In this document: positions 16,071 to 54,260 of the stretch, one piece after another
Layout of the letters: the number at the start of each line of letters is the position of its first letter
How positions within the stretch are numbered: the stretch's first letter is position 1
Assembly: GCA_002792635.1 (NCBI GenBank)
Contig: PFOR01000013.1
Location: forward strand, 1 to 56,408
Source: Candidatus Pacearchaeota archaeon CG_4_10_14_0_2_um_filter_35_33
Lineage (GTDB): Archaea > Nanobdellota > Nanobdellia > Pacearchaeales > GW2011-AR1
Length of the DNA: 56,408 nucleotides
Reading direction: 5' to 3'
Made by a program: the position numbers and the translations under genes
The notes under the pieces: generated by a model
Told to the model about the DNA's origin: nothing
Seen by the model: only the letters and a program-made list of their open reading frames with translations
The model's database searches: none

Positions 16071-17106
16071 CCAAATCTACCTCCCATTGTGTTCCACCCG
16101 AAGTACTATAAGATGGCGAACTAAATATAAGTCCCGTAGTATCTAACCGCTGCCATATGCAGAAGAACATCTCTTCACCCGGATTAGCCGGAGGGCTTCC
16201 AGCACCATAAGCTAAACTAATGCCTGAGATAATTGAAGGTGAACTATCATTTAATGCAGGACTTGCACAAGAACCACTATTAGAACCCCCGACAGTATCT
16301 CCTGCGCTGAAAGCATCAGCGGGCAAATTATCACCTGTACTATCAGTTGGAGGTAAATCGTAAGCAGTAACTTCCGCCGAACTAAAATCTACATTGCCTT
16401 GGTTAACAAAACCAACAGGACCATCGGCAGCCTGGTCTTCAACATCTAAACTTATAGAAGCCCACCCAACAGCAGGGTCATAGCCAAAAGCGGACAACTC
16501 CTGATAAAGAAAATTAATAGCAGATGAATTAGATTGGTTAGAGGCATCCGCTACTTGAACAGTCAACTCCCAGTTTACTGCAGGTTCATAATAATAGTGC
16601 ATAGGTATAGTACACAAATACTCAACAGTATTAGCATTTTGAGTGTTAGCAGTACAATTACCATCAGAGTAATAATAAGTCGGAGCATAATCATTCCCAG
16701 GATTCCTTAAAGAAACATACAAGTTACAGGTTCCCAGTCCAAATCCGGTCTCATTAGAACATTCAATAATTGCCTTACTTCCACCAGGCAAATCATTAAC
16801 ACCATTGTTATCTTCAACTTTAGCTGAAATCTCAACATTGTTTGCTCCATTAATCACAGGTGTAACATCATTAGTTGTATTGTATATCTTATCTCTAACT
16901 TCAGAAGCAGTGATAGTCGGTGCAGCATTCTGAACATTAACATCCACATTAACTGGAGATTCCCTAGGACTATCAAACGGCCAAATTGCACTACCAACTG
17001 AAATAAACATCACAACAAAAACCAAACCCAAAACAAAATTCTTTTTCACCATTTTCTCCATACTCTGAAAACTTCCACATTTATAAACATTTTTATTCTC
17101 TATCAT
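16063..17106 (-). CDS. Secreted/anchored surface protein with cadherin-like module
   Basis: Signal anchor FVLGLVFVVMFISVGSA. NAAPTITASEV..VEDNNGVNDLPGG module. 4-nt overlap with the upstream giant gene. Confidence 0.55.
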   Translation of the reverse strand: MIENKNVYKCGSFQSMEKMVKKNFVLGLVFVVMFISVGSAIWPFDSPRESPVNVDVNVQNAAPTITASEVRDKIYNTTNDVTPVINGANNVEISAKVEDNNGVNDLPGGSKAIIECSNETGFGLGTCNLYVSLRNPGNDYAPTYYYSDGNCTANTQNANTVEYLCTIPMHYYYEPAVNWELTVQVADASNQSNSSAINFLYQELSAFGYDPAVGWASISLDVEDQAADGPVGFVNQGNVDFSSAEVTAYDLPPTDSTGDNLPADAFSAGDTVGGSNSGSCASPALNDSSPSIISGISLAYGAGSPPANPGEEMFFCIWQRLDTTGLIFSSPSYSTSGGTQWEVDLVV

Positions 17107-20100
17107 TTTACTTTTTTCTTAGCTCTTGAATACAATGTCCAAACATTCCTATTATCTTTTCCTATCAATTCGGCAATCTCTAAATTACCCATATCTTTCC
17201 TAAGATAATAAACAATAGCTTCCAAGATGCTAAGCCCACTATTAAACACATTAACCGGAATCACCATACCCTCTGTAACCACAAGTCTTCCTTTTTTCTT
17301 CTTTAAAGCATTATTATAATTGTTCCAAACAGTCCTCTGATCCCTTCCAATTGTTTCAGCAATTTCACTAAACTTCATCCCTTCATTTTCTTTCAAATAC
17401 TTACATAATACCTCGGCAGGACCCAACTTATTATCCCTGAATATAGATAATGGAATACGGATTTCCATCTTCCTCACCTTATTAGAAACTAATTTATCTC
17501 TAAGCAATTCCAACAACTCATCACTCGATAAATTCCCTGCCAAATCCCTCAACTCATTTCTCCTCTTCAAAGAAAGAGGTAATCCAAACATCGTTGCCCA
17601 TCCAATAATCAAAGCAAACAAGATTTCCCAAGCACCAGAATAACTTCCAGTAGACAATCCTGTTGGCACCTCCTCAGCACAATAATCCAATACTTCCTGC
17701 GAATTCTCCCCCCTCGGCAAAACAGCATTAGGAATAGTAACTGGATTCCCATCAACAAGCCTAAATTCATTACATATCAAATCATCAGCATTAACACTAA
17801 ATTTATCAGAAATTATTTGATTTATTCCATTACTTAATGGGTTCCCTGTAACAGTTATAGAGGTGAAATCCTTATTTCCCAAATTCAGAATTATAAGATT
17901 ATCATCCGCGGGAATATCAGTCCCTCCCGGGACTAATCCAGACCATACAATTGAAAACGGTTCGTTAACATACTGAGACTCCCACAAATTAAATTCGTTA
18001 TTATCTCTCTTCGAGTTCTGCTGACTCAGGCTGTCTGTAGCCCTGGCACCCACATCCCATAATCCTGGCTCATCATAATACTGAATCCCAACAACACAAT
18101 CAAACTCAGCAGTAGTTGGATTAATTATCGTCCCTTTAGCACAATCCAAGTCATCTCTTGTTAGAGGATCACTAGGAGGGAAGAAACTTGTTTCAACTAA
18201 AGTTATGTCCCCATGTCCATCGGGATCTGAAACAGTTATCGTTGCGAGAACATTAGAAATGTCTCCTTCTACAATAAGTTGATCAGGGTCAACATAAATA
18301 TTTTGAATTGTGGGTGGCTGATTAACGGCTCCTGCTTCTCCTATGTAATAATAGCTAAACCCTGTAACGTTAAACTTGACAGTTTCTGCATTCAAATTGG
18401 TAAATGCTGTGCATTCATTTCCACAATCTAAACCATCCCTCCTAATTGCAGGGTCCACAAAGTTACCAGGCATGTTTCTAAATGTTATATTCGCCTCTTT
18501 ATTCAATGCGCCTAGCTCGGGAACAATATTAACATAAGCATAATTATAACTAACCTCTGTATTTGAATCGAGATTTCCGAATCTTGGATCCAAAGAATCT
18601 GTAGCATTCCATTCTATAGAGCCCCCTTGATAAGAACTGTTAATCAAACTTAATGCAAACTTAATACCATAATGAACGCCAAAATCTTCAAATCCTTTTG
18701 AATAGTTTATAGAAATCCTTCCGGTATCCCCATCAGCACCTGTAATTTGTCCCCTTCCTTCCTTAACACTTATGTGAACTCCCTTCATGTCTACAAAATC
18801 ATTTTCGAAATATATGTTTCCTCCGTCTCCAGGCGATTGCTCAAAGGTAGCTGCACTCCCACCATGTAAATTTGCATTAGAAGTAACATTAGAATTAAAT
18901 AAGAACAAGCTACCTCCGTGTACTCCTGTGCCTTGTCCACTTCCACCTCCTGTATTTCCGTAAAGCAAAACGTCTTCTACTTCAGAATTATACATAGTTA
19001 CATTGGGTCTCGACCTTGGGGTACTTCCCAAAGCTTCTATAGAACTTCCAAAATTAGTAACTCTCGTATTCTTAAGAGTGAAATTCTTAACATCAGCCCT
19101 TGTAAGGTTTATCCCCACACTATCCGGTGCTCCATCACCTGTGATAACAAAACCATTTCCATTCAAAGAAATATCATTAGCATTAACTTGTATACAAACT
19201 TCAGACCCTGACACGTCAGATGACAAAACATATTCTTTCCCTGCTTGATTTAAAATAGCACAAGTTGAAATTCCAGATTCATCAACAGAAAAATCAACAC
19301 TTTCTGTATTATTAATCAATCCAGAATTATCTCCCGTATAAAATAGAATTGTGTAGTCTCCAGTATTAAGAGTGTCCAAATCGTAATTGAAATTAATTCC
19401 ATCTGTAGTAGACATTGTAAAGTTTGTAGCCCAATTATCAAGGGTAAAGTTAACACTTCCAACACCTTCATCCAAACTTACCGTAACTGGAATTGGAAAT
19501 TCATTGGCATTATAAATTCTTGATTCAGGAGATGTAATATCAACGTCAGGAGGGCTATCTCCAATAACTGTAACCTCATCAACAACGCACCTCTCCCCTC
19601 CACCACTATTATCAATGATACATTCGAACGTAACTGTCATCTGGTTCGTGAAAGAGAGTTGATTTTGAAGTTTTCCAAATTTAGCATATCCAAGAGTAGA
19701 GCCCGGAGGAATACTTTGATCAACACTATCAGCAAAAATGCTACTTAATATGACTGGCACATCAACTCCGTTATCTAAATGAACAACCATTCCCTCACCA
19801 ACATCAACCTTGTAAAGTTTGTAACTAAGAGACAAATTTGCTGTGCTAAAACCGGATAAATCGAAAGTCTCGCTAAGGTTAAATGAACATGGCCCATTAA
19901 GACATTCAAACCCGGGATTGCTCGCACATGTTCCAGAAAAAGCCCCCCCAGGCAAATCCCAGGAACCAAAAGGAACATTCTGCCAGTTTCCAAGACTGTT
20001 ACAAGATTCGTACATAACTGTTTCAGCAGGGGCAAAAGAAATCTCCTCTTGTCCAAAAAAGTTCATACCCATCAACAACAGACCAAACAAAAGCAAAATA

Positions 20101-20402
20101 ACAGCTGACAAAACAAACTTCTTATTGACGACAAATCCAGGTTTCTTCTTAGAATAAAAATCCAAATATTTCTGATAGACATCTATTGTTTTATCGTAAT
20201 AGTTCATCCATTCACTTAATTTCCTTCCATCCAAACCTTTATCCAACAACTGCTTGTAAGTTTCCTCATTTAAATGCCCGGATTCATGTTGAGCAATCAA
20301 ATCTTCAACAAATCCTCTCTTTCTCTTCTTGGCAGCCTCAGCCTCGTTAATTTTTTCGTTTATCTCATTAATCCTTCTATTAATCTCTTCCATGCTTGCC
20401 AT
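17103..20402 (-). CDS. Giant two-TM surface protein: cytoplasmic coiled coil, TM, lectin-like + Ig-like + right-handed beta-helix ectodomain, TM, two cytoplasmic HTH modules
   Basis: TM1 FVLSAVILLLFGLLLMGMNFF. NosD/beta-helix-like CIQVNANDISLNGNGFVITG..GINL. TM2 AWEILFALIIGWATMFGLPLSL. Tail repeats ..FSEIAETIGRDQRTVWNNYNNALKK and ..LEIAELIGKDNRNVWTLYSRAKKK. Confidence 0.7.
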   Translation of the reverse strand: MASMEEINRRINEINEKINEAEAAKKRKRGFVEDLIAQHESGHLNEETYKQLLDKGLDGRKLSEWMNYYDKTIDVYQKYLDFYSKKKPGFVVNKKFVLSAVILLLFGLLLMGMNFFGQEEISFAPAETVMYESCNSLGNWQNVPFGSWDLPGGAFSGTCASNPGFECLNGPCSFNLSETFDLSGFSTANLSLSYKLYKVDVGEGMVVHLDNGVDVPVILSSIFADSVDQSIPPGSTLGYAKFGKLQNQLSFTNQMTVTFECIIDNSGGGERCVVDEVTVIGDSPPDVDITSPESRIYNANEFPIPVTVSLDEGVGSVNFTLDNWATNFTMSTTDGINFNYDLDTLNTGDYTILFYTGDNSGLINNTESVDFSVDESGISTCAILNQAGKEYVLSSDVSGSEVCIQVNANDISLNGNGFVITGDGAPDSVGINLTRADVKNFTLKNTRVTNFGSSIEALGSTPRSRPNVTMYNSEVEDVLLYGNTGGGSGQGTGVHGGSLFLFNSNVTSNANLHGGSAATFEQSPGDGGNIYFENDFVDMKGVHISVKEGRGQITGADGDTGRISINYSKGFEDFGVHYGIKFALSLINSSYQGGSIEWNATDSLDPRFGNLDSNTEVSYNYAYVNIVPELGALNKEANITFRNMPGNFVDPAIRRDGLDCGNECTAFTNLNAETVKFNVTGFSYYYIGEAGAVNQPPTIQNIYVDPDQLIVEGDISNVLATITVSDPDGHGDITLVETSFFPPSDPLTRDDLDCAKGTIINPTTAEFDCVVGIQYYDEPGLWDVGARATDSLSQQNSKRDNNEFNLWESQYVNEPFSIVWSGLVPGGTDIPADDNLIILNLGNKDFTSITVTGNPLSNGINQIISDKFSVNADDLICNEFRLVDGNPVTIPNAVLPRGENSQEVLDYCAEEVPTGLSTGSYSGAWEILFALIIGWATMFGLPLSLKRRNELRDLAGNLSSDELLELLRDKLVSNKVRKMEIRIPLSIFRDNKLGPAEVLCKYLKENEGMKFSEIAETIGRDQRTVWNNYNNALKKKKGRLVVTEGMVIPVNVFNSGLSILEAIVYYLRKDMGNLEIAELIGKDNRNVWTLYSRAKKKVK

Positions 20403-20471: not shown

Positions 20472-20620
20472 GTATTAATAAAGAACTTAATATGTGTTAT
20501 TTAAACTTAATATGTGTTATTTAAACTTAATATGTGTTATTTAAACTTAATATGTGTTATTTAAACTTAATATGTGTTATTTAAACTTAATATGTGTTAA
20601 TAAAGAACTTAGTATGTATT
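20472..20620. repeat. Perfect 20-bp tandem repeat array (acttaatatgtgttatttaa x5 plus a 15-nt partial) with related flanking half-units
   Basis: Units at 20485, 20505, 20525, 20545, 20565, partial at 20585. Flanks gtattaataaagaacttaatatgt and gtgttaataaagaacttagtatgt. Confidence 0.95.
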
Positions 20621-21042: not shown

Positions 21043-21231
21043 ATGGAAAACAAAGAAATAATAAGCCTTAGAAAAGATGTAAATAATCTGAAAGAAGTAG
21101 TTGAAAATCTGACTATTTTAATGAATAGAAGACTGATAAGCGAATTAAAGGAAGAGGCAGATAATATAGAAGCAGGGAAATTTTTAACTGAAGAAGAATT
21201 TGAGAAGAAACATAAGGTTAAAATTCAGTAA
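21043..21231 (+). CDS. Small coiled-coil protein with antitoxin-like C-terminus
   Basis: TATA-like aactataaatatt about 25 nt upstream. C-terminal NIEAGKFLTEEEFEKKH resembles addiction-module component tails. Its 3' end overlaps the relE-like gene by 14 nt, convergently. Confidence 0.45.
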   Translation: MENKEIISLRKDVNNLKEVVENLTILMNRRLISELKEEADNIEAGKFLTEEEFEKKHKVKIQ

Positions 21232-21514
21232 TGTCTTTTGAATAGCCTCTTCTAATATAATCATCACACTCATCTTTGTGTTTTACAGATAAAATCCAGA
21301 TTTCCTTAGCATTTTCCTGAACAATGTAAAACACCCTATAAACCTCTGCCTTAAATTCCCATAAAGTTGGCTTCGTATGTGACAAAGGCTTTCCAACACT
21401 TTCAGGATTTTCTTTTAGGCGAGTCAACTTTTTGATAATTTGTGATGATATTGACTTATCAATCTTCTCAAACTCTTTATCGAACTTCTTTCCAAACTTG
21501 AGAATAAAAAGCAT
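21218..21514 (-). CDS. RelE/ParE-family toxin
   Basis: About 98 aa. KKFDKEFEKIDKSISSQIIKKLTRLKENP..GKPL..LWEFKAEVYRVFYIVQENAKEIWILSVKHKDE is the typical RelE/ParE layout. Confidence 0.7.
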   Translation of the reverse strand: MLFILKFGKKFDKEFEKIDKSISSQIIKKLTRLKENPESVGKPLSHTKPTLWEFKAEVYRVFYIVQENAKEIWILSVKHKDECDDYIRRGYSKDITEF

Positions 21515-47944: not shown

Positions 47945-50900
47945 TTAATTTTTCAATTTGATGTGTCTTTTCTCGTGGTGGATGTTATGTCTAGTCTTAT
48001 AATGGTATTTTCTAATAAGCTTCAAAACAAAAACAACAGAACCTAAAATAAGAACTATCAATCCAAACAAAGACAAGGATCTTAAATTACTATCCGAAAT
48101 CGCGAATCCTGCAAGTCCTGATTCGCTCAGCAAAACTGCTCTTTCCAAAACAATACTTTCATCCCCATTAGATGCTTCTAAAACTAGGCTAAATTCGCCA
48201 AACGCATCCTTAGGAAGCGGAACTTCAAAGCCAAATTCCTGTTCTAAACCACCGTTAAGATAAACATTTTCAACACCAGAGCCTACCTCAATTCCACTGG
48301 GGTTGTACAACTGATAAGAAATCTCAATACCTTGTCCTTCATCTACAAAACTTATCAAATTCGTAGTAACATCTAATTCAGTTCCCTTTCTGACAGCACT
48401 CAAAAATTCAAAATTAAAATCAGAAGGTGTTACAACAATGTTAAATCCTGCAAATGCCGTAACCTCTGTGCAAGCCACCCTCAAATTAGATTCATACTCT
48501 CCAGGTTCTGCATTTAATGGAATATTTACATCAAATAAAAAATTAACAGACTGTCCCGAAGCAAGAGATTCAATCTGATCCGATTCAATCCATGAACTAA
48601 TTTCGCCTAAGCCCGTTACTTCACAATCATTCAAAAACCTCTGTCCGGTATTCAAAACAAAAAGACCTACTTGCTGAGACTCCCCTCTCTTCAGGCTAAC
48701 TGAATCAACACCACCAATATCCAATCCTGCATTTCCCTCAAGTCCCGGATTTCCTCCACCCCCGCCTCCACCACCTCCACCTCCACCCCCACTTCCAGAA
48801 CCTGCTGAAACTGTAAATCTACTTGTCTTAGATTCGCTATTTCCTGCTGAATCTTCTCCAGTTACTTCAATATTATAAGTTCCTGTAACCAAAACATTTA
48901 TCGTTGTGTTTGTGCACCCCGAAATAACACCCACGGTAACTTCCACACCGTTGCTTGCTAAAGTAACATTATAAGTGCATAAAACAGGGCTTAAGTTATC
49001 ACTAACATTAACTGTAACTGGAATATTGGGCGTGCTTGTATAAGTTCCCGTAGGCTCTTCTATCGTAATATTTGGAGGAGTAACATCAGAAACCAAACTC
49101 CTATTCCCTGTCCAAACAACACTTCCATCGTCACAAGAAATGGCCCAACTATAATTTCCTTCTGCCAGTTCCAGATTAAAACTATTTTCCTGACCAGATA
49201 TGGCTCCAGAGTCAGTTTGGTTCAAAGAATAAGTCCCATTAAAATCACCATGCAAACTACATGAGCTCAAGCTCCCAGATTCGGGAATGTAAACAAAGTC
49301 TACCGAACTAACATTGGTATAATTATTCTGCTTAGGATATAAAAGATGGATTCCTAAATTGCCTGAATCAACAAAGAACATCAAATTATCAACATCTTCC
49401 AATCCTTCAACACTTTCATTTACATAAACTTTCAAATCATAAACTCCGTCTCCTCCAACACTCAGACTGCTATTAGCACATCCAGGCAGAGTATTATTTG
49501 TTCCACCATCTAGGGAGTACCCGCATGAATCAACACTACCTTGAACAGAAAAATTCAAATCAATAGTGGTTAAATTATAAACAGATGCATAACTTGGATA
49601 AACAACACTAACATTTGGTTGAACTGCTACCTGGGAAGGAAATTCAACATTGAACACAACACTGCTTGAATTTTCATTTCCGGCACTATCATTAATCCAT
49701 GCCTGCCAAGTATTGCTTCCCTCATCTGCCATCAGGCTTGCGTTTTCTCCACAGATAAGGCTGGTGTTTGTTGTTCCCCCATCAACACTATACCAACAGC
49801 TATCTGGATTAATTTCTGTAAATGTGTAATTCAAATCAATAGAAGTATAATTATAACTAATATTCAAAGGATTTGTAATGTTTATCTCAGGATAGATGCT
49901 ATCAACAAAGAATGTAACACTGCTTGAATTTTCATTTCCGGCACTATCATTAATCCATGCCTGCCAAGTATTGCTTCCCTCATCTGCCATCAGGCTTGCG
50001 TTTTCTCCACAGATAAGGCTGGTGTTTGTTGTTCCCCCATCAACACTATACCAACAGCTATCTGGATTAATTTCTGTAAATGTGTAATTCAAATCAATAG
50101 AAGTATAATTATAACTAATATTCAAAGGATTTGTAATGTTTATCTCAGGATAGATGCTATCAACAAAGAATGTAACACTGCTTGAATTTTCATTTCCTGA
50201 TGTGTCATTTGCCCATACTATCCATGTGCTACTTCCTTCCTCCGAATCCAGGCTAGTAACATTATCTCCGCATGTTATGGATGTATTTGTTGTTCCAGAA
50301 TCTACTGAATACCAACAACTATCCAAGGCAGTCTCATCACTAGCCGAATAATTTAATTCTGTCTGCACAGAATTATAACTTGTATTGGCTGGATATACAA
50401 GCTCAACCAAAGGAAGAGTTGTATCTGAAACAGTAGCATCGCCCGTAATTATAATGTTATCAATAGCACAATAATCGGCACTCGTAAGAGGAGATTCAAC
50501 CCTTATGCCTGCACCAGACAAAAGCCCATGCATTGTAATATTATAAGAATAAGGATCATAATCATCATCCTCATTAGTTAAATTCAACAATTGAACATCA
50601 TCAGTCCCATTAGTGTAATAATAATAACAATATTCATCAGATTCAAGAGATTGTGCAGTTGCAAAAAAACTAAGGTTAACAAAACTGTATCCACTGCTAT
50701 CAAAACCTCTTGTTGCAACACATGCTGAATCCCCCCTCATATGATAATTTCCTATCGATCCACCCAATCCAGTAATTTTACATCCACCAGAAAAAGCCCA
50801 TGCTCCATCCCAACCAGAACCACAATTATTAGCACCACATTCAAAATCATCCGCTGCAATCTGTACAGCAGATACTGCAGAAACAAGAAACATAAATATA

Positions 50901-51055
50901 AACAACACAATAACCATCTTTCCTCCCTTGCTTAAAATTTCTTTCATAACTAATTCTATTTTCTTTGAAAAAATGGTGGCATTATCTTTGCAGTATTTCT
51001 GAAAAGCTTTGTAAACCTTAGAATCAATACTAAGAGTCACCTTCTTTTTCGCCAT
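47945..51055 (-). CDS. Giant two-TM surface protein with N-terminal RHH-like module, lectin-like domain, Ig-like repeats, poly-Gly linker, CARDB-like region, C-terminal TM and His/Lys tail
   Basis: MAKKKVTLSIDSKVYKAFQKYCKDNATIFSKKIELVMKEIL, then MVIVLFIFMFLVSAVSA. Repeated ..CWYSVDGGTTNTS.. modules, G13 linker, C-terminal LFGLIVLILGSVVFVL. Confidence 0.7.
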   Translation of the reverse strand: MAKKKVTLSIDSKVYKAFQKYCKDNATIFSKKIELVMKEILSKGGKMVIVLFIFMFLVSAVSAVQIAADDFECGANNCGSGWDGAWAFSGGCKITGLGGSIGNYHMRGDSACVATRGFDSSGYSFVNLSFFATAQSLESDEYCYYYYTNGTDDVQLLNLTNEDDDYDPYSYNITMHGLLSGAGIRVESPLTSADYCAIDNIIITGDATVSDTTLPLVELVYPANTSYNSVQTELNYSASDETALDSCWYSVDSGTTNTSITCGDNVTSLDSEEGSSTWIVWANDTSGNENSSSVTFFVDSIYPEINITNPLNISYNYTSIDLNYTFTEINPDSCWYSVDGGTTNTSLICGENASLMADEGSNTWQAWINDSAGNENSSSVTFFVDSIYPEINITNPLNISYNYTSIDLNYTFTEINPDSCWYSVDGGTTNTSLICGENASLMADEGSNTWQAWINDSAGNENSSSVVFNVEFPSQVAVQPNVSVVYPSYASVYNLTTIDLNFSVQGSVDSCGYSLDGGTNNTLPGCANSSLSVGGDGVYDLKVYVNESVEGLEDVDNLMFFVDSGNLGIHLLYPKQNNYTNVSSVDFVYIPESGSLSSCSLHGDFNGTYSLNQTDSGAISGQENSFNLELAEGNYSWAISCDDGSVVWTGNRSLVSDVTPPNITIEEPTGTYTSTPNIPVTVNVSDNLSPVLCTYNVTLASNGVEVTVGVISGCTNTTINVLVTGTYNIEVTGEDSAGNSESKTSRFTVSAGSGSGGGGGGGGGGGGGNPGLEGNAGLDIGGVDSVSLKRGESQQVGLFVLNTGQRFLNDCEVTGLGEISSWIESDQIESLASGQSVNFLFDVNIPLNAEPGEYESNLRVACTEVTAFAGFNIVVTPSDFNFEFLSAVRKGTELDVTTNLISFVDEGQGIEISYQLYNPSGIEVGSGVENVYLNGGLEQEFGFEVPLPKDAFGEFSLVLEASNGDESIVLERAVLLSESGLAGFAISDSNLRSLSLFGLIVLILGSVVFVLKLIRKYHYKTRHNIHHEKRHIKLKN
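49661..50196. repeat. Perfect 258-nt tandem duplication (2.07 copies) inside the giant gene; a third diverged copy follows
   Basis: actgcttgaattttcatttcc.. recurs at 49661, 49919 and 50177. Encodes an identical 86-aa Ig-like module twice. Confidence 0.95.
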
Positions 51056-51182
51056 TTGAACCTAAACGAATTCAAACTTATAAAGATTTTCCTTTTACAG
51101 CAAAATACATATCTATCCTTACATATACAGAAATATACATAAGAAATTTAAAATCAAAAAAGGAAAAGAAAAAAAGAAAAAA

Positions 51183-52559
51183 TTACTCAGCCAAAACTCT
51201 GACGTTATCTACATAACAGCTTTCCGAAACAGCCCCAACTTCACACTTAAATCTAATCTTGCTGGTGCCACTTGGTATGCTAAAGCTCTTGAAGACAAAA
51301 TTGCTATTCGTCTCCCCTTCACTTCCTAAATGCTCAACTGAAACCCAATTACCATCGAAATAGCTGACTTCAAAATCGTCTGCGGCATCTAATCCAACAA
51401 GTTTCCTATAATACTCAAGCATAGCACTTGAATAACCAGAAACGTCTATCGTTGTCTCTAAAAAGCTATCATCTCCAGCCCCTGTTCTTTTTGCTCTTGC
51501 TACCCAGTTTCCTTCAAATGCGCCATCAGACGCATACCATTCTCTTCCTGTTCCATACAGGTTCCATCCAGCTAAATCGCCAGATTCAAATCCATCTGCA
51601 AAGATTTCAACAGGACCAATAGGATCTGTTTCATCATTGTCATCAGCACTTGAACAGCCAGGATCAGCCATATCAATTAACTGATCTCCATCGTTGTCAA
51701 TACCATCATTACACTGCTTAGGTTGTGCATAAGGGGGAACATAGAAGTTCGTTCCAGAAACATCATTGATATTGTTGGCAAGCCATTTGTAGTTTTCAGT
51801 TCTCTGCTCAGTTGTCAATCCAGAAATTCCGTCATCCTCGTAAGCCTCTGCATGTACACTCATCAAAAGCATATTTTCATACTTTATAGACGAAGGTAAA
51901 TCGCTCGGTATATCCGAAAAGCTCATAATCTTTTCTCCAAGAATATCCGAAGGTGTATCTCTCCAACCTCTTGTAGGGCCACCATAATAAATCATCTCAT
52001 GACCATTGTCCATGGTTGTAAGAGCATATCCTGGATTTTCGTCATAATTAGCTATATCTGTTATAGAGCCTTCCAATGTAGGATACCTTCCTAACAAATC
52101 AGGCCAATCATAGTAATCACCCTGCCAGTGATAATCACCAGCCATATAGAAGAATCCTGCACAAATTCCAAGATAACTTCCGCCATCATTGTCTATAAAG
52201 TCAAGAATGTTAGCCTTTCCTTCAGCTCCGAGAGACCTTTGCATGTAATAAGCATTACCTCCCGGCTGGACATAAAGCTCCACGTTTGGGTAATCGGACA
52301 AATCACAATTATTGGAAACATCTCTGCTATCCAAAAATACATAGTTTATGGAAGAATCATAAGATTTCCACCAATCCATGAACTGGGTTATCCAGGACTT
52401 GCTAAGATCCCCAACGCCTCCAAATCCAGTATCTCCATATACAACAACATTTGTATCTGGTTTTATTGGACACTTAACTGGTTTTCCAGCTTCAGCATAA
52501 CCCACGAAAACGAAGGCAACTAATAGAAAAACTACAAATAAAACAAAATACTTATTCAT
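51183..52559 (-). CDS. Secreted protein: BPL_N/GATase1-like domain, Ca-binding-like DNDGD motif, C-terminal lectin-like beta-sandwich
   Basis: Signal peptide. LYVQPGGNAYYMQ..GGSYLGICAGFFYMAGDY, CNDGIDNDGDQLIDMADPGC, FESGDLAGWNLYG..CYVDNVRV. Confidence 0.55.
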   Translation of the reverse strand: MNKYFVLFVVFLLVAFVFVGYAEAGKPVKCPIKPDTNVVVYGDTGFGGVGDLSKSWITQFMDWWKSYDSSINYVFLDSRDVSNNCDLSDYPNVELYVQPGGNAYYMQRSLGAEGKANILDFIDNDGGSYLGICAGFFYMAGDYHWQGDYYDWPDLLGRYPTLEGSITDIANYDENPGYALTTMDNGHEMIYYGGPTRGWRDTPSDILGEKIMSFSDIPSDLPSSIKYENMLLMSVHAEAYEDDGISGLTTEQRTENYKWLANNINDVSGTNFYVPPYAQPKQCNDGIDNDGDQLIDMADPGCSSADDNDETDPIGPVEIFADGFESGDLAGWNLYGTGREWYASDGAFEGNWVARAKRTGAGDDSFLETTIDVSGYSSAMLEYYRKLVGLDAADDFEVSYFDGNWVSVEHLGSEGETNSNFVFKSFSIPSGTSKIRFKCEVGAVSESCYVDNVRVLAE

Positions 52560-52656
52560 CTTAATACCTCCTTTCAGCTATATTACACCCAAATGTTTTA
52601 AACTTTTAAAGATTTGTATAACAAAGTTATATAAAACTAAAATCATTCATTAAAAT

Positions 52657-53559
52657 ATGAAAGTCAAGACAACTTTCTTAGGAACATCAACTGCAATTCC
52701 CACAAAAACAAGAAATCACCCAGCCATGCTCATCTCTTTTCTAAATGAAAATATCCTAGTAGACTGTGGAGAAGGAACACAAAGACAATTCCAAAAAGCT
52801 AAAATTAATTCATGCAAGCTCACAAGGATATTAATAACGCACTGGCATGCAGACCACATAGCAGGCCTCCCAACACTATTGGAAACGTTGGCAATGTCTG
52901 AATATTCTAAAACCCTTTACATCTATGGACCCAAGGGAACAAAACAAAAGTTCAAAGCCCTTGAGGCCATATACGGAAGAATAAGAATCAATCACAAGAT
53001 AAAAGAGGTTTCAGGACAATTTTTCAAAAACAATGACTTTGTATTAGAGGCCACTCCAATGCAACACGGGATTGCAGCAAACGCCTATTCAATCACGCTA
53101 AAAGACAAAACACGATTAGACAAAAATAAATTGAAAAAACTAAAACTGCCCAATTCCTCAGTCCTAAAAAAACTTCAAGAAGGAAAAGACATAACCCATA
53201 ACAAGAAAAAAATCAAAGCCAAAGATGTAACCTATACTGAACCAGGAAAAAAAATAACAGTCATTCTTGATACAAAGTTCAATCAAAAAGCAATCACATT
53301 AGCAAAAGACTCGGACTTATTAATAACAGAAGCCTCATTTCTTGCAAATTCCAAAAAGGGAAAAGAAAAAGCTAAACTTTACAAGCACTTAACAGCAAAA
53401 CAAGCAGCAATTATCGCCAAAAGGTCAAAGTCAAAAAAACTTGCGCTTATTCACATCTCTAGAAGATACGAAAAATCACTTTCCAAGATAGAAAAAGAAG
53501 CCAAAGCTACATTCAAACACACAATAATACCTGATGATTTAGATAAAATGGAAATTTAA
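52657..53559 (+). CDS. rnz: Ribonuclease Z (tRNA 3' endonuclease)
   Basis: Metallo-beta-lactamase LITHWHADHIAGL. Short-form length. ..LIHISRRY. Confidence 0.85.
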   Translation: MKVKTTFLGTSTAIPTKTRNHPAMLISFLNENILVDCGEGTQRQFQKAKINSCKLTRILITHWHADHIAGLPTLLETLAMSEYSKTLYIYGPKGTKQKFKALEAIYGRIRINHKIKEVSGQFFKNNDFVLEATPMQHGIAANAYSITLKDKTRLDKNKLKKLKLPNSSVLKKLQEGKDITHNKKKIKAKDVTYTEPGKKITVILDTKFNQKAITLAKDSDLLITEASFLANSKKGKEKAKLYKHLTAKQAAIIAKRSKSKKLALIHISRRYEKSLSKIEKEAKATFKHTIIPDDLDKMEI

Positions 53560-53801
53560 TCCAGATTAGTTCCAGCAGGAGAAATAAAGATTATTGTATC
53601 TCCTCTCAAGAACGTTAATCCAAGATTCTTCTTAACTTCTCCATCTTTCATTTCCTTCGTATTATCAAGAACGATGTTTATGTGAATGTCAAAAGCCATC
53701 AGAGTTCCAACAAACTGTTTCTCGTTCTTCAGTTGTATTAGAACTTCTTTTCCCTTCGACACATTCAACAAATCCAAAGGTCTTTCAATTCCGTTCGCCA
53801 T
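53556..53801 (-). CDS. Sm-like archaeal protein (LSm/SmAP)
   Basis: Sm1 KEVLIQLKNEKQFVGTLMAFDIHINIVL, Sm2 LTFLRGDTIIFISP. Confidence 0.9.
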   Translation of the reverse strand: MANGIERPLDLLNVSKGKEVLIQLKNEKQFVGTLMAFDIHINIVLDNTKEMKDGEVKKNLGLTFLRGDTIIFISPAGTNLD

Positions 53802-53891
53802 GTTGTGTTCTTATTTTATGAGTATTTAAACATTTCTCTTTAACGACAATTAAAAGCAAATCTTTTTAAACCAATCAGAACAAAATAGGAT

Positions 53892-54260
53892 ATGAATAAG
53901 GGAAGAAAGATAACAAGCGGAAAATATCACGCAAATAGAAAGAAAAAGAAGTACGAAAGAAAAGGTATTGTCAACAAAACATCAGTTGGCGAAACAAAAA
54001 AGAAAACAAAAAGAGGAAAGGGTGGACACAAAAAGACAATTATCTTAAGAACTAATACTGCAAACATCAAATCAGGAAACAAAGTCCAAAAAACAGAAAT
54101 CAAAAACGTTGTTGAAACCCCTCAAAACAGATTCCTTGCCAGACAGAACAGATTAATGAAAGGTTCAATTATAGAAACATCTCTTGGAAAAGCCAAGATT
54201 ACCAACAGACCGAGCCAAGAAGGTTGTGTGAATGCCGTCCTAATTAAGGATAAAGAATAA
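53892..54260 (+). CDS. rps8e: Ribosomal protein eS8
   Basis: GRKITSGKYHANRKKKKYE.. and C-terminal ..AKITNRPSQEGCVNAVLI. Confidence 0.9.
   Translation: MNKGRKITSGKYHANRKKKKYERKGIVNKTSVGETKKKTKRGKGGHKKTIILRTNTANIKSGNKVQKTEIKNVVETPQNRFLARQNRLMKGSIIETSLGKAKITNRPSQEGCVNAVLIKDKE

What the first reader, a model, noticed from the sequence alone, without database searches (positions are those of the whole stretch)
50918..51055. Ribbon-helix-helix-like module fused in frame to the signal anchor of a 1036-aa adhesin-like protein
Residues 1-46 (MAKKKVTLSIDSKVYKAFQKYCKDNATIFSKKIELVMKEILSKGGK) have the strand-helix-helix spacing of CopG/Arc RHH domains. They run directly into MVIVLFIFMFLVSAVSA. Together with the C-terminal TM and His/Lys tail, this gives the same in-out-in hairpin topology as the 1099-aa protein. 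This is the second giant surface protein in the window that carries a cytoplasmic DNA-binding-like module, so it looks like a recurring design, not an accident. Alternatively, translation from Met47 yields an ordinary secreted protein and the RHH reading frame is a fused remnant.
Basis: inference. Interest (0 to 1): 0.7.

Follow-up and report, generated by a model that had tools for sequence, protein, structure and literature searches.

The report
DNA-binding module fused to signal peptide
A tiny ribbon-helix-helix DNA-binding protein, normally made from its own gene just upstream of surface-protein genes in DPANN archaea, is here joined in frame to the export signal of a giant surface protein; the same join recurs in dozens of related archaea.

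Summary
ORF 47945-51055 (-) encodes 1036 aa. Residues 1-46 are a true ribbon-helix-helix (RHH) module (PHROG "Arc-like repressor", E=2.4e-5). They run without a stop into a signal peptide (aa 47-63), a glycosylation-rich ectodomain, a C-terminal TM and a basic tail. A second assembly (99.97% identical) has the same junction.

The module belongs to a DPANN-specific family of ~45-aa proteins. In about 35 of 44 genomes it is a separate gene overlapping or abutting (often ATGA) a gene for a signal-peptide protein. In 9 of 44 genomes, and about 20 of the best 150 library representatives, it is fused in frame as here. Homologs of the window's N-terminal domain are fused too, and most fusions have no Met at the junction. 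RHH codons in fused genes are under purifying selection (pN 0.16, pS 0.75). Fused linkers are purely basic and the AxA cleavage site is kept. A repeated motif, TAYTTCTWT, is 23-46-fold enriched upstream of these genes.

Best reading: an autoregulatory RHH that has become the cytoplasmic N-terminal extension of a cleavable signal peptide. DNA binding and cleavage are inferred, not shown. The "fused remnant / Met47 start" alternative is not supported. This is a new variant of known kinds.

The parts
47945..51055 (-). Whole fused ORF, 1036 aa: RHH, signal peptide, ectodomain, C-terminal TM, basic tail
50918..51055 (-). RHH module, aa 1-46 (beta-strand KKKVTLSID, helix 12-24, helix 26-44)
   Evidence: family alignment A1
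50867..50917 (-). Signal-peptide h- and c-regions, aa 47-63 (MVIVLFIFMFLVSAVSA). Cleavage is predicted after Ala63 (V-S-A|V). The basic n-region is supplied by K43/K46 of the RHH tail.
   Evidence: sequence inspection; alignment with split relatives
50921..50926 (-). GGAGGA (Gly44-Gly45 codons), Shine-Dalgarno-like, with 3 nt (AAG) between it and the Met47 codon at 50915-50917. Possibly a vestige of the coupled-gene SD; not conserved in fused orthologs.
51077..51084 (-). TATA box TTTATAAG at -29..-22 from the ATG, implying a leaderless or near-leaderless transcript that starts at the RHH codon 1
   Evidence: same layout in related loci
51121..51150 (-). Two operator-like sites with an ATTTCT core (TAAATTTCTTATGTA and TATATTTCTGTATATGT). 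They are variants of the family-wide motif TATAYTTCTATRTA.
51156..51182 (-). T-rich tract directly after the stop of the upstream 458-aa gene (archaeal terminator-like), which separates the two transcription units
50438..50866 (-). N-terminal ectodomain, aa 64-206 (DDFECGxxxCGSGW type), homologous to the first domain of other RHH-fused proteins
49658..50197 (-). Perfect 258-nt tandem duplication (2.1 copies) encoding Ig-like repeats
   Evidence: Big_13 hits
48749..48802 (-). Gly/Ser linker, aa 752-769; the same feature is present in fused homologs
48023..48076 (-). C-terminal transmembrane anchor, aa 994-1011
47948..48022 (-). Cytoplasmic His/Lys/Arg-rich tail, aa 1012-1036

Best explanation
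The first 46 codons encode a real member of a DPANN-specific family of minimal (~45 aa) RHH DNA-binding proteins. In most genomes this protein is made from its own gene at the 5' end of a surface-protein operon. That gene overlaps the downstream gene by 1-17 nt, often as ATGA, so the two are translationally coupled. In the window's lineage the stop has been lost, and the RHH is translated from Met1 as one polypeptide with the signal peptide of a 973-aa surface protein. The basic end of the RHH now serves as the signal peptide's n-region. Inferred steps follow. The RHH stays on the cytoplasmic face. The h-region targets the chain to Sec. Signal peptidase cuts after Ala63. This leaves a 63-aa membrane-tethered RHH-signal-peptide stub and a mature, glycosylated protein anchored by its C-terminal TM. 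RHH dimers bind the TAYTTCT-type repeats upstream of and around the TATA box of their own promoter and autoregulate the operon, most likely by repression.
For: Shown: RHH profile hits and fold layout. All 24 closest homologs are free-standing proteins; 22 are 43-52 aa and two are 70 aa. In 44 genomes, about 35 loci are split and nearly all overlap or abut a gene whose product begins with a signal peptide or TM segment; 9 are in-frame fusions. Fusions occur in at least two unrelated body families, and one of these also has split members, so there were at least two fusion or fission events. About 20 of the best 150 library representatives are fusions, eleven of them 1007-1465 aa, with the same C-terminal architecture as the window protein. 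Window-type homologs P0025, P0043, P0096 and P0109 are all fused. RHH codons in fused genes give mean pN 0.16 against pS 0.75, with differences by codon position of 317:179:797. Fused linkers carry 0-1 acidic residues and a net charge of +1 to +3, while split tails have a median of 2 acidic residues (Mann-Whitney p=4e-4). The split n-region aligns onto the fused basic tail, and the nearly invariant c-region Ala, taken as the -1 residue, shares one column. Translation from Met47 would give a signal peptide with no basic n-region. The motif TAYTTCTWT occurs at 11.1/kb in the 150 nt upstream (34 of 42 loci), against 0.24/kb elsewhere, 0.48/kb in other intergenic DNA, and 1.95+/-1.4 hits in shuffles versus 70 observed. 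It is often tandem at 10-nt spacing, in forward orientation at about -60 to -147 and in reverse orientation clustered around the TATA box at about -26 to -53. The DNA-reading strand KVTLSI is invariant across the family. There are 43 N-glycosylation sequons in aa 64-990 and 1 in aa 1-63. Established knowledge: archaeal RHH repressors bind upstream sites and spread over TATA/BRE, and SvtR represses its own gene and a large structural-protein gene (PMC5569661).
Against: No experiment shows DNA binding, autoregulation or signal-peptidase cleavage. No signal-peptide predictor was available. A folded, dimerising 46-aa n-region could hinder cleavage. aa 47-68 is long enough (22 residues) to stay as a TM anchor. 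The window's own upstream sites are variants and do not match the strict motif. The window module departs from the family consensus at three core positions (NATIFSKK versus NAIMLSKK). Foldseek found no PDB match. The PDB profile search (best hit SvtR, E=0.34) and hhalign against CopG (probability 4.7%) are weak. A GGAGGA followed by ATG at Met47 leaves internal initiation open in this one gene.
Confidence: 0.6

Rival explanations
1. The hydrophobic segment is an uncleaved signal anchor. The protein would then be a permanent in-out-in hairpin and act as a membrane-tethered one-component regulator, like ToxR/CadC or archaeal ArnR. Its giant ectodomain would sense contact with a host or surface, and the cytoplasmic RHH would read this out on DNA.
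For: aa 47-68 spans 22 apolar residues and a C-terminal TM exists. The 1099-aa neighbour has non-cleavable TMs and two cytoplasmic HTH modules, so membrane-tethered DNA-binding domains on giant surface proteins do occur in this genome. Membrane-bound regulators of surface structures are known in archaea (PMC6396743). L023 carries an ~140-aa two-domain cytoplasmic region ahead of the hydrophobic segment.
Against: Most relatives make the RHH as a free protein, so covalent coupling to the ectodomain is not needed for its function. Every fused member keeps small -3/-1 residues and helix breakers, and in alignment A2 the nearly invariant c-region Ala falls in the same column as in the split relatives' signal peptides.
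Confidence: 0.25
2. Translation of the surface protein starts at Met47, using the GGAGGA just upstream. The RHH frame would then be a decaying remnant, or a second, minor product.
For: GGAGGA lies 3 nt before ATG47. Some genes in this window use strong SDs, for example GGAGGT before the 458-aa gene. Five of the ten fused loci examined codon by codon (window included) have a Met at the start of the h-region.
Against: Most fused homologs have no Met or alternative start at the junction, including L009, P0025 and P0043. The SD-like codons are not conserved in them: GGCGGT in L009, and none in P0025. The RHH codons are under purifying selection in fused genes. A Met47 start leaves no basic n-region. 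GGAGG-N3-10-ATG occurs 19 times on this strand, mostly inside ORFs. The TATA box is placed for a leaderless start at Met1.
Confidence: 0.08
3. The fusion is an assembly or sequencing artefact, that is, a lost stop or an indel.
For: In most relatives the two genes lie 0-17 nt apart or overlap, so a single error could join them.
Against: A second deposited assembly has the identical junction. Neither a +1 nor a -1 shift at the junction restores a nearby stop (inspection of the sequence). Fusions with different junction sequences occur in at least 9 genomes from different studies and in about 20 cluster representatives.
Confidence: 0.02
4. The small RHH is a type II antitoxin and the downstream gene is its toxin partner.
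For: A small RHH gene overlapping the downstream gene by 4 nt is the classic toxin-antitoxin layout. One source names a homolog 'antitoxin component of RelBE/YafQ-DinJ'. There are weak CcdA and RelB_DinJ hits.
Against: The module has no C-terminal toxin-binding extension. The downstream products are 142 to more than 2500 aa, carry signal peptides and belong to many unrelated families.
Confidence: 0.02

Closest known systems
Minimal RHH autorepressors: CopG (45 aa, pMV158), Arc/Mnt of P22, SvtR of archaeal virus SIRV1
   Same: Size of about 45 aa, strand-helix-helix layout, first gene of its operon, repeated operator-like sites near its own promoter. SvtR also controls a >1000-aa structural-protein gene (PMC5569661). 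Profile hits to Arc-like and RepB/CopG-like families.
   Different: Sequence similarity is only at profile level. This family is DPANN-specific and tied to genes for signal-peptide proteins. In the window it is not a free protein but the N-terminal part of a secretory precursor.
Membrane-bound one-component regulators: ToxR/CadC/TcpP in bacteria, ArnR/ArnR1 in Sulfolobus (PMC6396743)
   Same: A cytoplasmic DNA-binding domain tethered to the membrane, with regulation of cell-surface structures.
   Different: Those use wHTH/HTH domains and stable TM anchors with dedicated sensor domains. Here the domain is an RHH, the hydrophobic segment looks like a cleavable signal peptide, and the 'sensor' would be the regulated cargo itself.
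Long signal peptides with post-targeting functions: HERV-K(HML-2) Env signal peptide (PMC2649029) and, from my own knowledge, the MMTV Rem signal peptide
   Same: A functional, nucleic-acid-related protein encoded as the extended n-region of a signal peptide and separated from the cargo by signal peptidase.
   Different: Those are eukaryotic retroviral cases. No homology. Release and function of the archaeal stub are untested.
Type II toxin-antitoxin operons with RHH antitoxins
   Same: A small RHH gene overlapping the next gene by a few bases; presumed autoregulation.
   Different: No toxin-binding tail. The partner is a large exported protein, not a toxin.

Membership tests
Ribbon-helix-helix (Arc/MetJ/CopG) superfamily | An N-terminal beta-strand with alternating polar and apolar residues, followed by two helices, within about 45 aa | tested here: met
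   KVTLSID alternation in alignment A1. The AF2 model has aa 1-11 extended and helices at 12-24 and 26-44. The strand is unpaired because a monomer was modelled.
Ribbon-helix-helix (Arc/MetJ/CopG) superfamily | Significant profile similarity to curated RHH families | tested here: met
   PHROG Arc-like repressor: E=2.4e-5 for the window module and 2e-7 for the best family member, with 23/24 members matching. Pfam DUF6364, RepB-RCR_reg and CcdA all match, but below the gathering thresholds.
Ribbon-helix-helix (Arc/MetJ/CopG) superfamily | Similarity to a solved RHH structure | tested here: inconclusive
   Foldseek against PDB gave no hits. The PDB profile search's top hit is SvtR (2KEL) at E=0.34. 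hhalign against CopG is in register but has probability 4.7%.
Ribbon-helix-helix (Arc/MetJ/CopG) superfamily | Dimerisation through the beta-ribbon and sequence-specific DNA binding | not testable with these tools
   Indirect only: single-chain double-RHH relatives (P0050, P0051), tandem RHH genes (L025, L042), and a conserved repeat motif upstream.
Sec-type class 1 signal peptide (signal peptidase I substrate) | A basic n-region, a 7-15-aa h-region, and a c-region with small residues at -3/-1 | tested here: met
   K43/K46, then MVIVLFIFMFLV, then SAVSA|V. The same pattern holds in all fused homologs, and in alignment A2 it aligns with split relatives' signal peptides. No SignalP-type predictor was available.
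Sec-type class 1 signal peptide (signal peptidase I substrate) | Actual cleavage | not testable with these tools
   Needs N-terminal sequencing or proteomics.
ToxR/CadC/ArnR-like membrane-bound one-component regulators | An OmpR-type wHTH or HTH domain, a stable TM anchor and a dedicated sensor domain | tested here: not met
   The DNA-binding domain is an RHH. The hydrophobic segment has signal-peptide features. The ectodomain is made of Ig-like and NPCBM_assoc-like adhesin repeats.
Type II TA antitoxin (RHH class) | A C-terminal toxin-neutralising extension and a small cytoplasmic toxin encoded downstream | tested here: not met
   The module ends 3-10 residues after helix 2. Downstream products are large and carry signal peptides.
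DPANN mini-RHH family defined here (alignment A1; weak match to Pfam DUF6364) | KVTLSIDSxxY...C..NA..LSKKIE signature at the 5' end of a gene or operon for a signal-peptide protein | tested here: met
   The window module is 54-72% identical to the members of alignment A1. All 13 invariant columns are kept, but two of the four nearly invariant ones differ (L29F, K31K retained, D11 and M37 retained). Context matches.

The most novel reading that the evidence does not exclude
The RHH is a transcription factor encoded inside a signal peptide. Each exported surface-protein molecule would leave one membrane-held RHH stub after signal-peptidase cleavage. An intramembrane or signal-peptide peptidase would then free the stub, so that repressor supply reports successful export: a secretion-coupled feedback loop. 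This has not been described in archaea or bacteria as far as I could find. Together with the 1099-aa HTH-bearing protein, it would indicate that tiny DPANN cells routinely wire giant surface proteins directly to DNA-binding domains.
Probability: 0.2. Interest if true: 0.85.

Novelty: new variant of a known kind. Interest (0 to 1): 0.66.

Why it matters
DPANN archaea depend on contact with host cells, and their giant surface proteins are thought to mediate that contact. How these genes are controlled is unknown, and the organisms are mostly uncultured. This finding defines a conserved, lineage-wide control module of promoter repeats, a mini-RHH and a coupled or fused signal peptide in front of such genes. 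It gives concrete sequences for EMSA, footprinting and cleavage assays. The split and fused forms are a natural Rosetta-stone pair that links a DNA-binding protein to protein export. If the RHH is released from the signal peptide, that would be a new way of coupling secretion to transcription in prokaryotes. No paper in the searchable library mentions DUF6364 or this architecture.

Tried and rejected
These attempts led nowhere or were inconclusive.
- phmmer of aa 1-46 against PDB sequences gave only a chance coiled-coil hit.
- Foldseek of the 46-aa monomer model against PDB gave no hits.
- hhalign of the family against CopG was in register but not significant.
- Exact look-ups of the 1036-aa and the 990-aa (Met47) products found neither on record. 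The N-terminal 144-aa fragment P0066 did lead to a second assembly.
- The strict operator pattern TAYTTCTWT does not occur in the window's own promoter; only variants do. Its other hits in the window lie inside ORFs, not in promoters. I therefore make no regulon claim for the window.
- A neighbour-joining tree of the 36-aa core is too poorly resolved to count fusion events. I used body-family membership instead.
- The internal SD argument was rejected as evidence, because GGAGG-N3-10-ATG is common inside ORFs on this strand.
- The toxin-antitoxin reading was rejected on gene content.
- The PD-(D/E)xK-like N-terminal extension seen in some relatives has no significant Pfam hit (only AntA at E=0.074), so its identity rests on motif inspection alone.
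- Literature searches for this fusion found nothing specific.

Full report
**Observation.** The minus-strand ORF 47945..51055 encodes 1036 aa. It starts MAKKKVTLSIDSKVYKAFQKYCKDNATIFSKKIELVMKEILSKGGK (aa 1-46, window 50918-51055). It runs without a stop into MVIVLFIFMFLVSAVSA (aa 47-63) and then VQIAADDFECG.... Hydropathy finds only two apolar segments, aa ~47-68 and aa 994-1011. The second is followed by a His/Lys/Arg tail. There are 43 N-glycosylation sequons in aa 64-990 and one in aa 1-63, which fits an exported middle part. The body carries Ig-like Big_13 repeats, a perfect 258-nt tandem duplication and a poly-Gly linker. A separately deposited contig (GCA_002790905.1, PFWB01000013.1) is 99.97% identical to window 50622-54055. 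Its gene call begins with the same 144 residues. The in-frame junction is therefore real.

**Is it an RHH?** Yes, at profile level.
- The window module matches PHROG 'Arc-like repressor' phrog_3180 end to end at E=2.4e-5. 23 of 24 family members match it and 19 match phrog_582.
- All 24 members hit Pfam DUF6364, 12 hit RepB-RCR_reg and 9 hit CcdA, all below the gathering cut-offs.
- NCBIfam gives weak hits to a YbfE-like family and to RelB/DinJ.
- AlphaFold2 gives an extended N-terminus and helices 12-24 and 26-44, mean pLDDT 82.
- Links to solved structures are weak. The top PDB profile hit is the archaeal-virus RHH SvtR at E=0.34. Foldseek found nothing. hhalign against CopG was in register but not significant.

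**What the module normally is.** The 24 closest homologs are free-standing proteins: 22 are 43-52 aa and two are 70 aa. The few with source names are from Pace-, Woese- and Nanoarchaeota. Thirteen positions are invariant, including the presumed DNA-reading strand KVTLSI and the helix-2 cap LSKKIE. In three long contigs the small gene ends ...AAATGA. It overlaps by 4 nt the start of a gene whose product begins with a signal peptide, and a GGAGG often lies inside the RHH's last codons.

A scan of one genome per species returned 44 loci, all from DPANN MAGs. In about 35 of them the module is a separate gene. It overlaps the next gene by 4 nt (12 distinct loci), by 1, 8, 11 or 17 nt, or lies 0-28 nt upstream, with few exceptions. 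The downstream products range from 142 to more than 2500 aa. Almost all start with a K/R-rich n-region, a hydrophobic stretch and an AxA-like site.

**The fusion recurs.**
- Nine of the 44 genomes have the module fused in frame to such a signal peptide, as in the window: L009, L012, L013, L015, L016, L018, L020, L023 and L051.
- A profile search of 1.84 billion cluster representatives found 432 family members. Among the best 150, about 20 are fusions. Eleven of these are full-length proteins of 1007-1465 aa with the same Gly linker, NPCBM_assoc-like domain, C-terminal TM and basic tail as the window protein.
- The four detectable homologs of the window's own N-terminal domain are all fused (P0025, P0043, P0096, P0109). 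P0025 and P0043 have no Met at the junction.
- Fusions occur in at least two unrelated body families. One of them (QGDFNNGTY type) also has split members, so fusion or fission happened at least twice.

**Is the fused RHH translated and functional?**
- Among fused genes the RHH codons show mean pN 0.16 against pS 0.75. Differences by codon position are 317:179:797. This excludes an untranslated or decaying remnant.
- The linker has adapted. Fused tails have 0-1 acidic residues in their last eight positions and a net charge of +1 to +3. Split tails have a median of 2 acidic residues (p=4e-4).
- In an alignment of one body family, the Met-Lys/Arg n-region of the split precursors lies on top of the basic RHH tail of the fused ones. 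The h-region and the nearly invariant c-region Ala share columns.
- Translation from Met47 would give a signal peptide with no basic n-region.
- The GGAGGA before Met47 is not conserved in orthologs. GGAGG-N3-10-ATG occurs 19 times on this strand, mostly inside genes. Internal initiation is therefore neither supported nor excluded for this one gene.

**Promoter and operator.** In the window a TATA box, TTTATAAG, sits at -29..-22 from the ATG. This predicts a leaderless start at Met1. A T-rich tract separates it from the upstream gene.

Across 42 non-redundant loci the 9-mer TAYTTCTWT (consensus TATAYTTCTATRTA) occurs 70 times in the 150 nt upstream, or 11.1 per kb, in 34 loci. The comparison values are 0.24 per kb in the rest of the loci, 0.48 per kb in other intergenic DNA, and 1.95 +/- 1.4 hits in shuffles. 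Copies are often tandem at 10-nt spacing. Forward copies lie at about -60 to -147. Reverse copies cluster around the TATA box at about -26 to -53, with others further upstream. The window has two variant sites at 51121-51150.

This matches how archaeal RHH repressors such as SvtR work: they bind upstream sites and spread over TATA/BRE (PMC5569661). DNA binding by this family remains an inference.

**Mechanism proposed.** A leaderless mRNA starts at the RHH codon 1. The RHH folds in the cytoplasm. The following h-region takes the chain to the Sec translocon. Signal peptidase cuts after Ala63. The mature protein stays anchored by its C-terminal TM, and a 63-aa RHH-signal-peptide stub stays in the membrane. 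RHH dimers act on the repeats at their own promoter.

Shown here: the sequence architecture, its recurrence, selection on the RHH codons, and motif enrichment. Inferred: topology, cleavage, DNA binding and the sign of regulation.

The main rival is an uncleaved anchor, giving a ToxR/ArnR-like tethered regulator (PMC6396743). It gains some support from the 1099-aa neighbour, which carries two Sigma70_r4_2 HTH modules behind its C-terminal TM.

**Comparison and novelty.** The module works like CopG, Arc or SvtR, and its gene layout resembles RHH antitoxin operons. It fails the antitoxin test because it has no toxin-binding tail and is followed by exported giants. It fails the ToxR-type test because it has a different DNA-binding fold and a signal-peptide-like segment. 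The nearest functional analogy to the fused form is the long retroviral signal peptides with a post-targeting role (PMC2649029). Literature searches found no description of this family or fusion. I rate it a new variant of known kinds, with interest 0.66.

Noticed in passing
window 17103-20402 (-): The 1099-aa surface protein has an N-terminal coiled coil plus TM, a large ectodomain, a C-terminal TM, and then two Sigma70_r4_2-type HTH modules (Pfam E=7.7e-11, above the cut-off). It is a second giant surface protein with a cytoplasmic DNA-binding part.
   Followed up: partly
window 20484-20599: A perfect 20-nt tandem repeat (5.8 copies, unit AACTTAATATGTGTTATTTA) lies directly upstream of the TATA box of the 1099-aa gene. 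It could be an operator array for that protein's own HTH modules.
   Followed up: partly
window 49658-50197: A 100%-identical 258-nt tandem duplication (2.1 copies) inside the fused gene encodes Ig-like repeats. This points to a very recent domain duplication or ongoing repeat-number variation.
   Followed up: partly
L023:3710-4120, L035:2576-3025, L046:2740-3144, L048:1239-1691; P0149: In some relatives a ~95-aa domain with a PD-(D/E)xK-like motif (CPDFIM...x11...VELET) precedes the RHH. In L023 this gives a triple fusion of nuclease-like domain, RHH, signal peptide and giant protein. It has no significant Pfam match (only AntA at E=0.074).
   Followed up: partly
L025:4001-4377, L042:4004-4272; P0050, P0051: Tandem duplicated RHH genes, and single-chain proteins with two RHH modules (like viral AvtR). 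Both fit a dimer as the working unit.
   Followed up: no
P0164, P0171, P0182, P0187: A more distant subfamily has the RHH followed by a long low-complexity tail that ends in a conserved motif P-x-[IL]-[DE]-x-L-[RK]. It has no TM segment.
   Followed up: no
window 51183-52559 (-): The upstream neighbour (458 aa) is a secreted protein with a BPL_N/GATase-like domain. Its C-terminal domain (FADGFESGDLAGW...) resembles the first ectodomain of the RHH-fused protein family. It is preceded by a strong GGAGGT Shine-Dalgarno sequence.
   Followed up: no
window 21043-21514: A small ORF pair on opposite strands (62 aa on the plus strand, 98 aa on the minus strand) lies next to the repeat array. The 98-aa product looks like a RelE/ParE-type toxin by eye; this was not tested.
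   Followed up: no
L001:7003-12138 and similar loci: In split loci the RHH can head an operon of several large surface-protein genes (YadA_head-like, Laminin_G_3), not just one.
   Followed up: no
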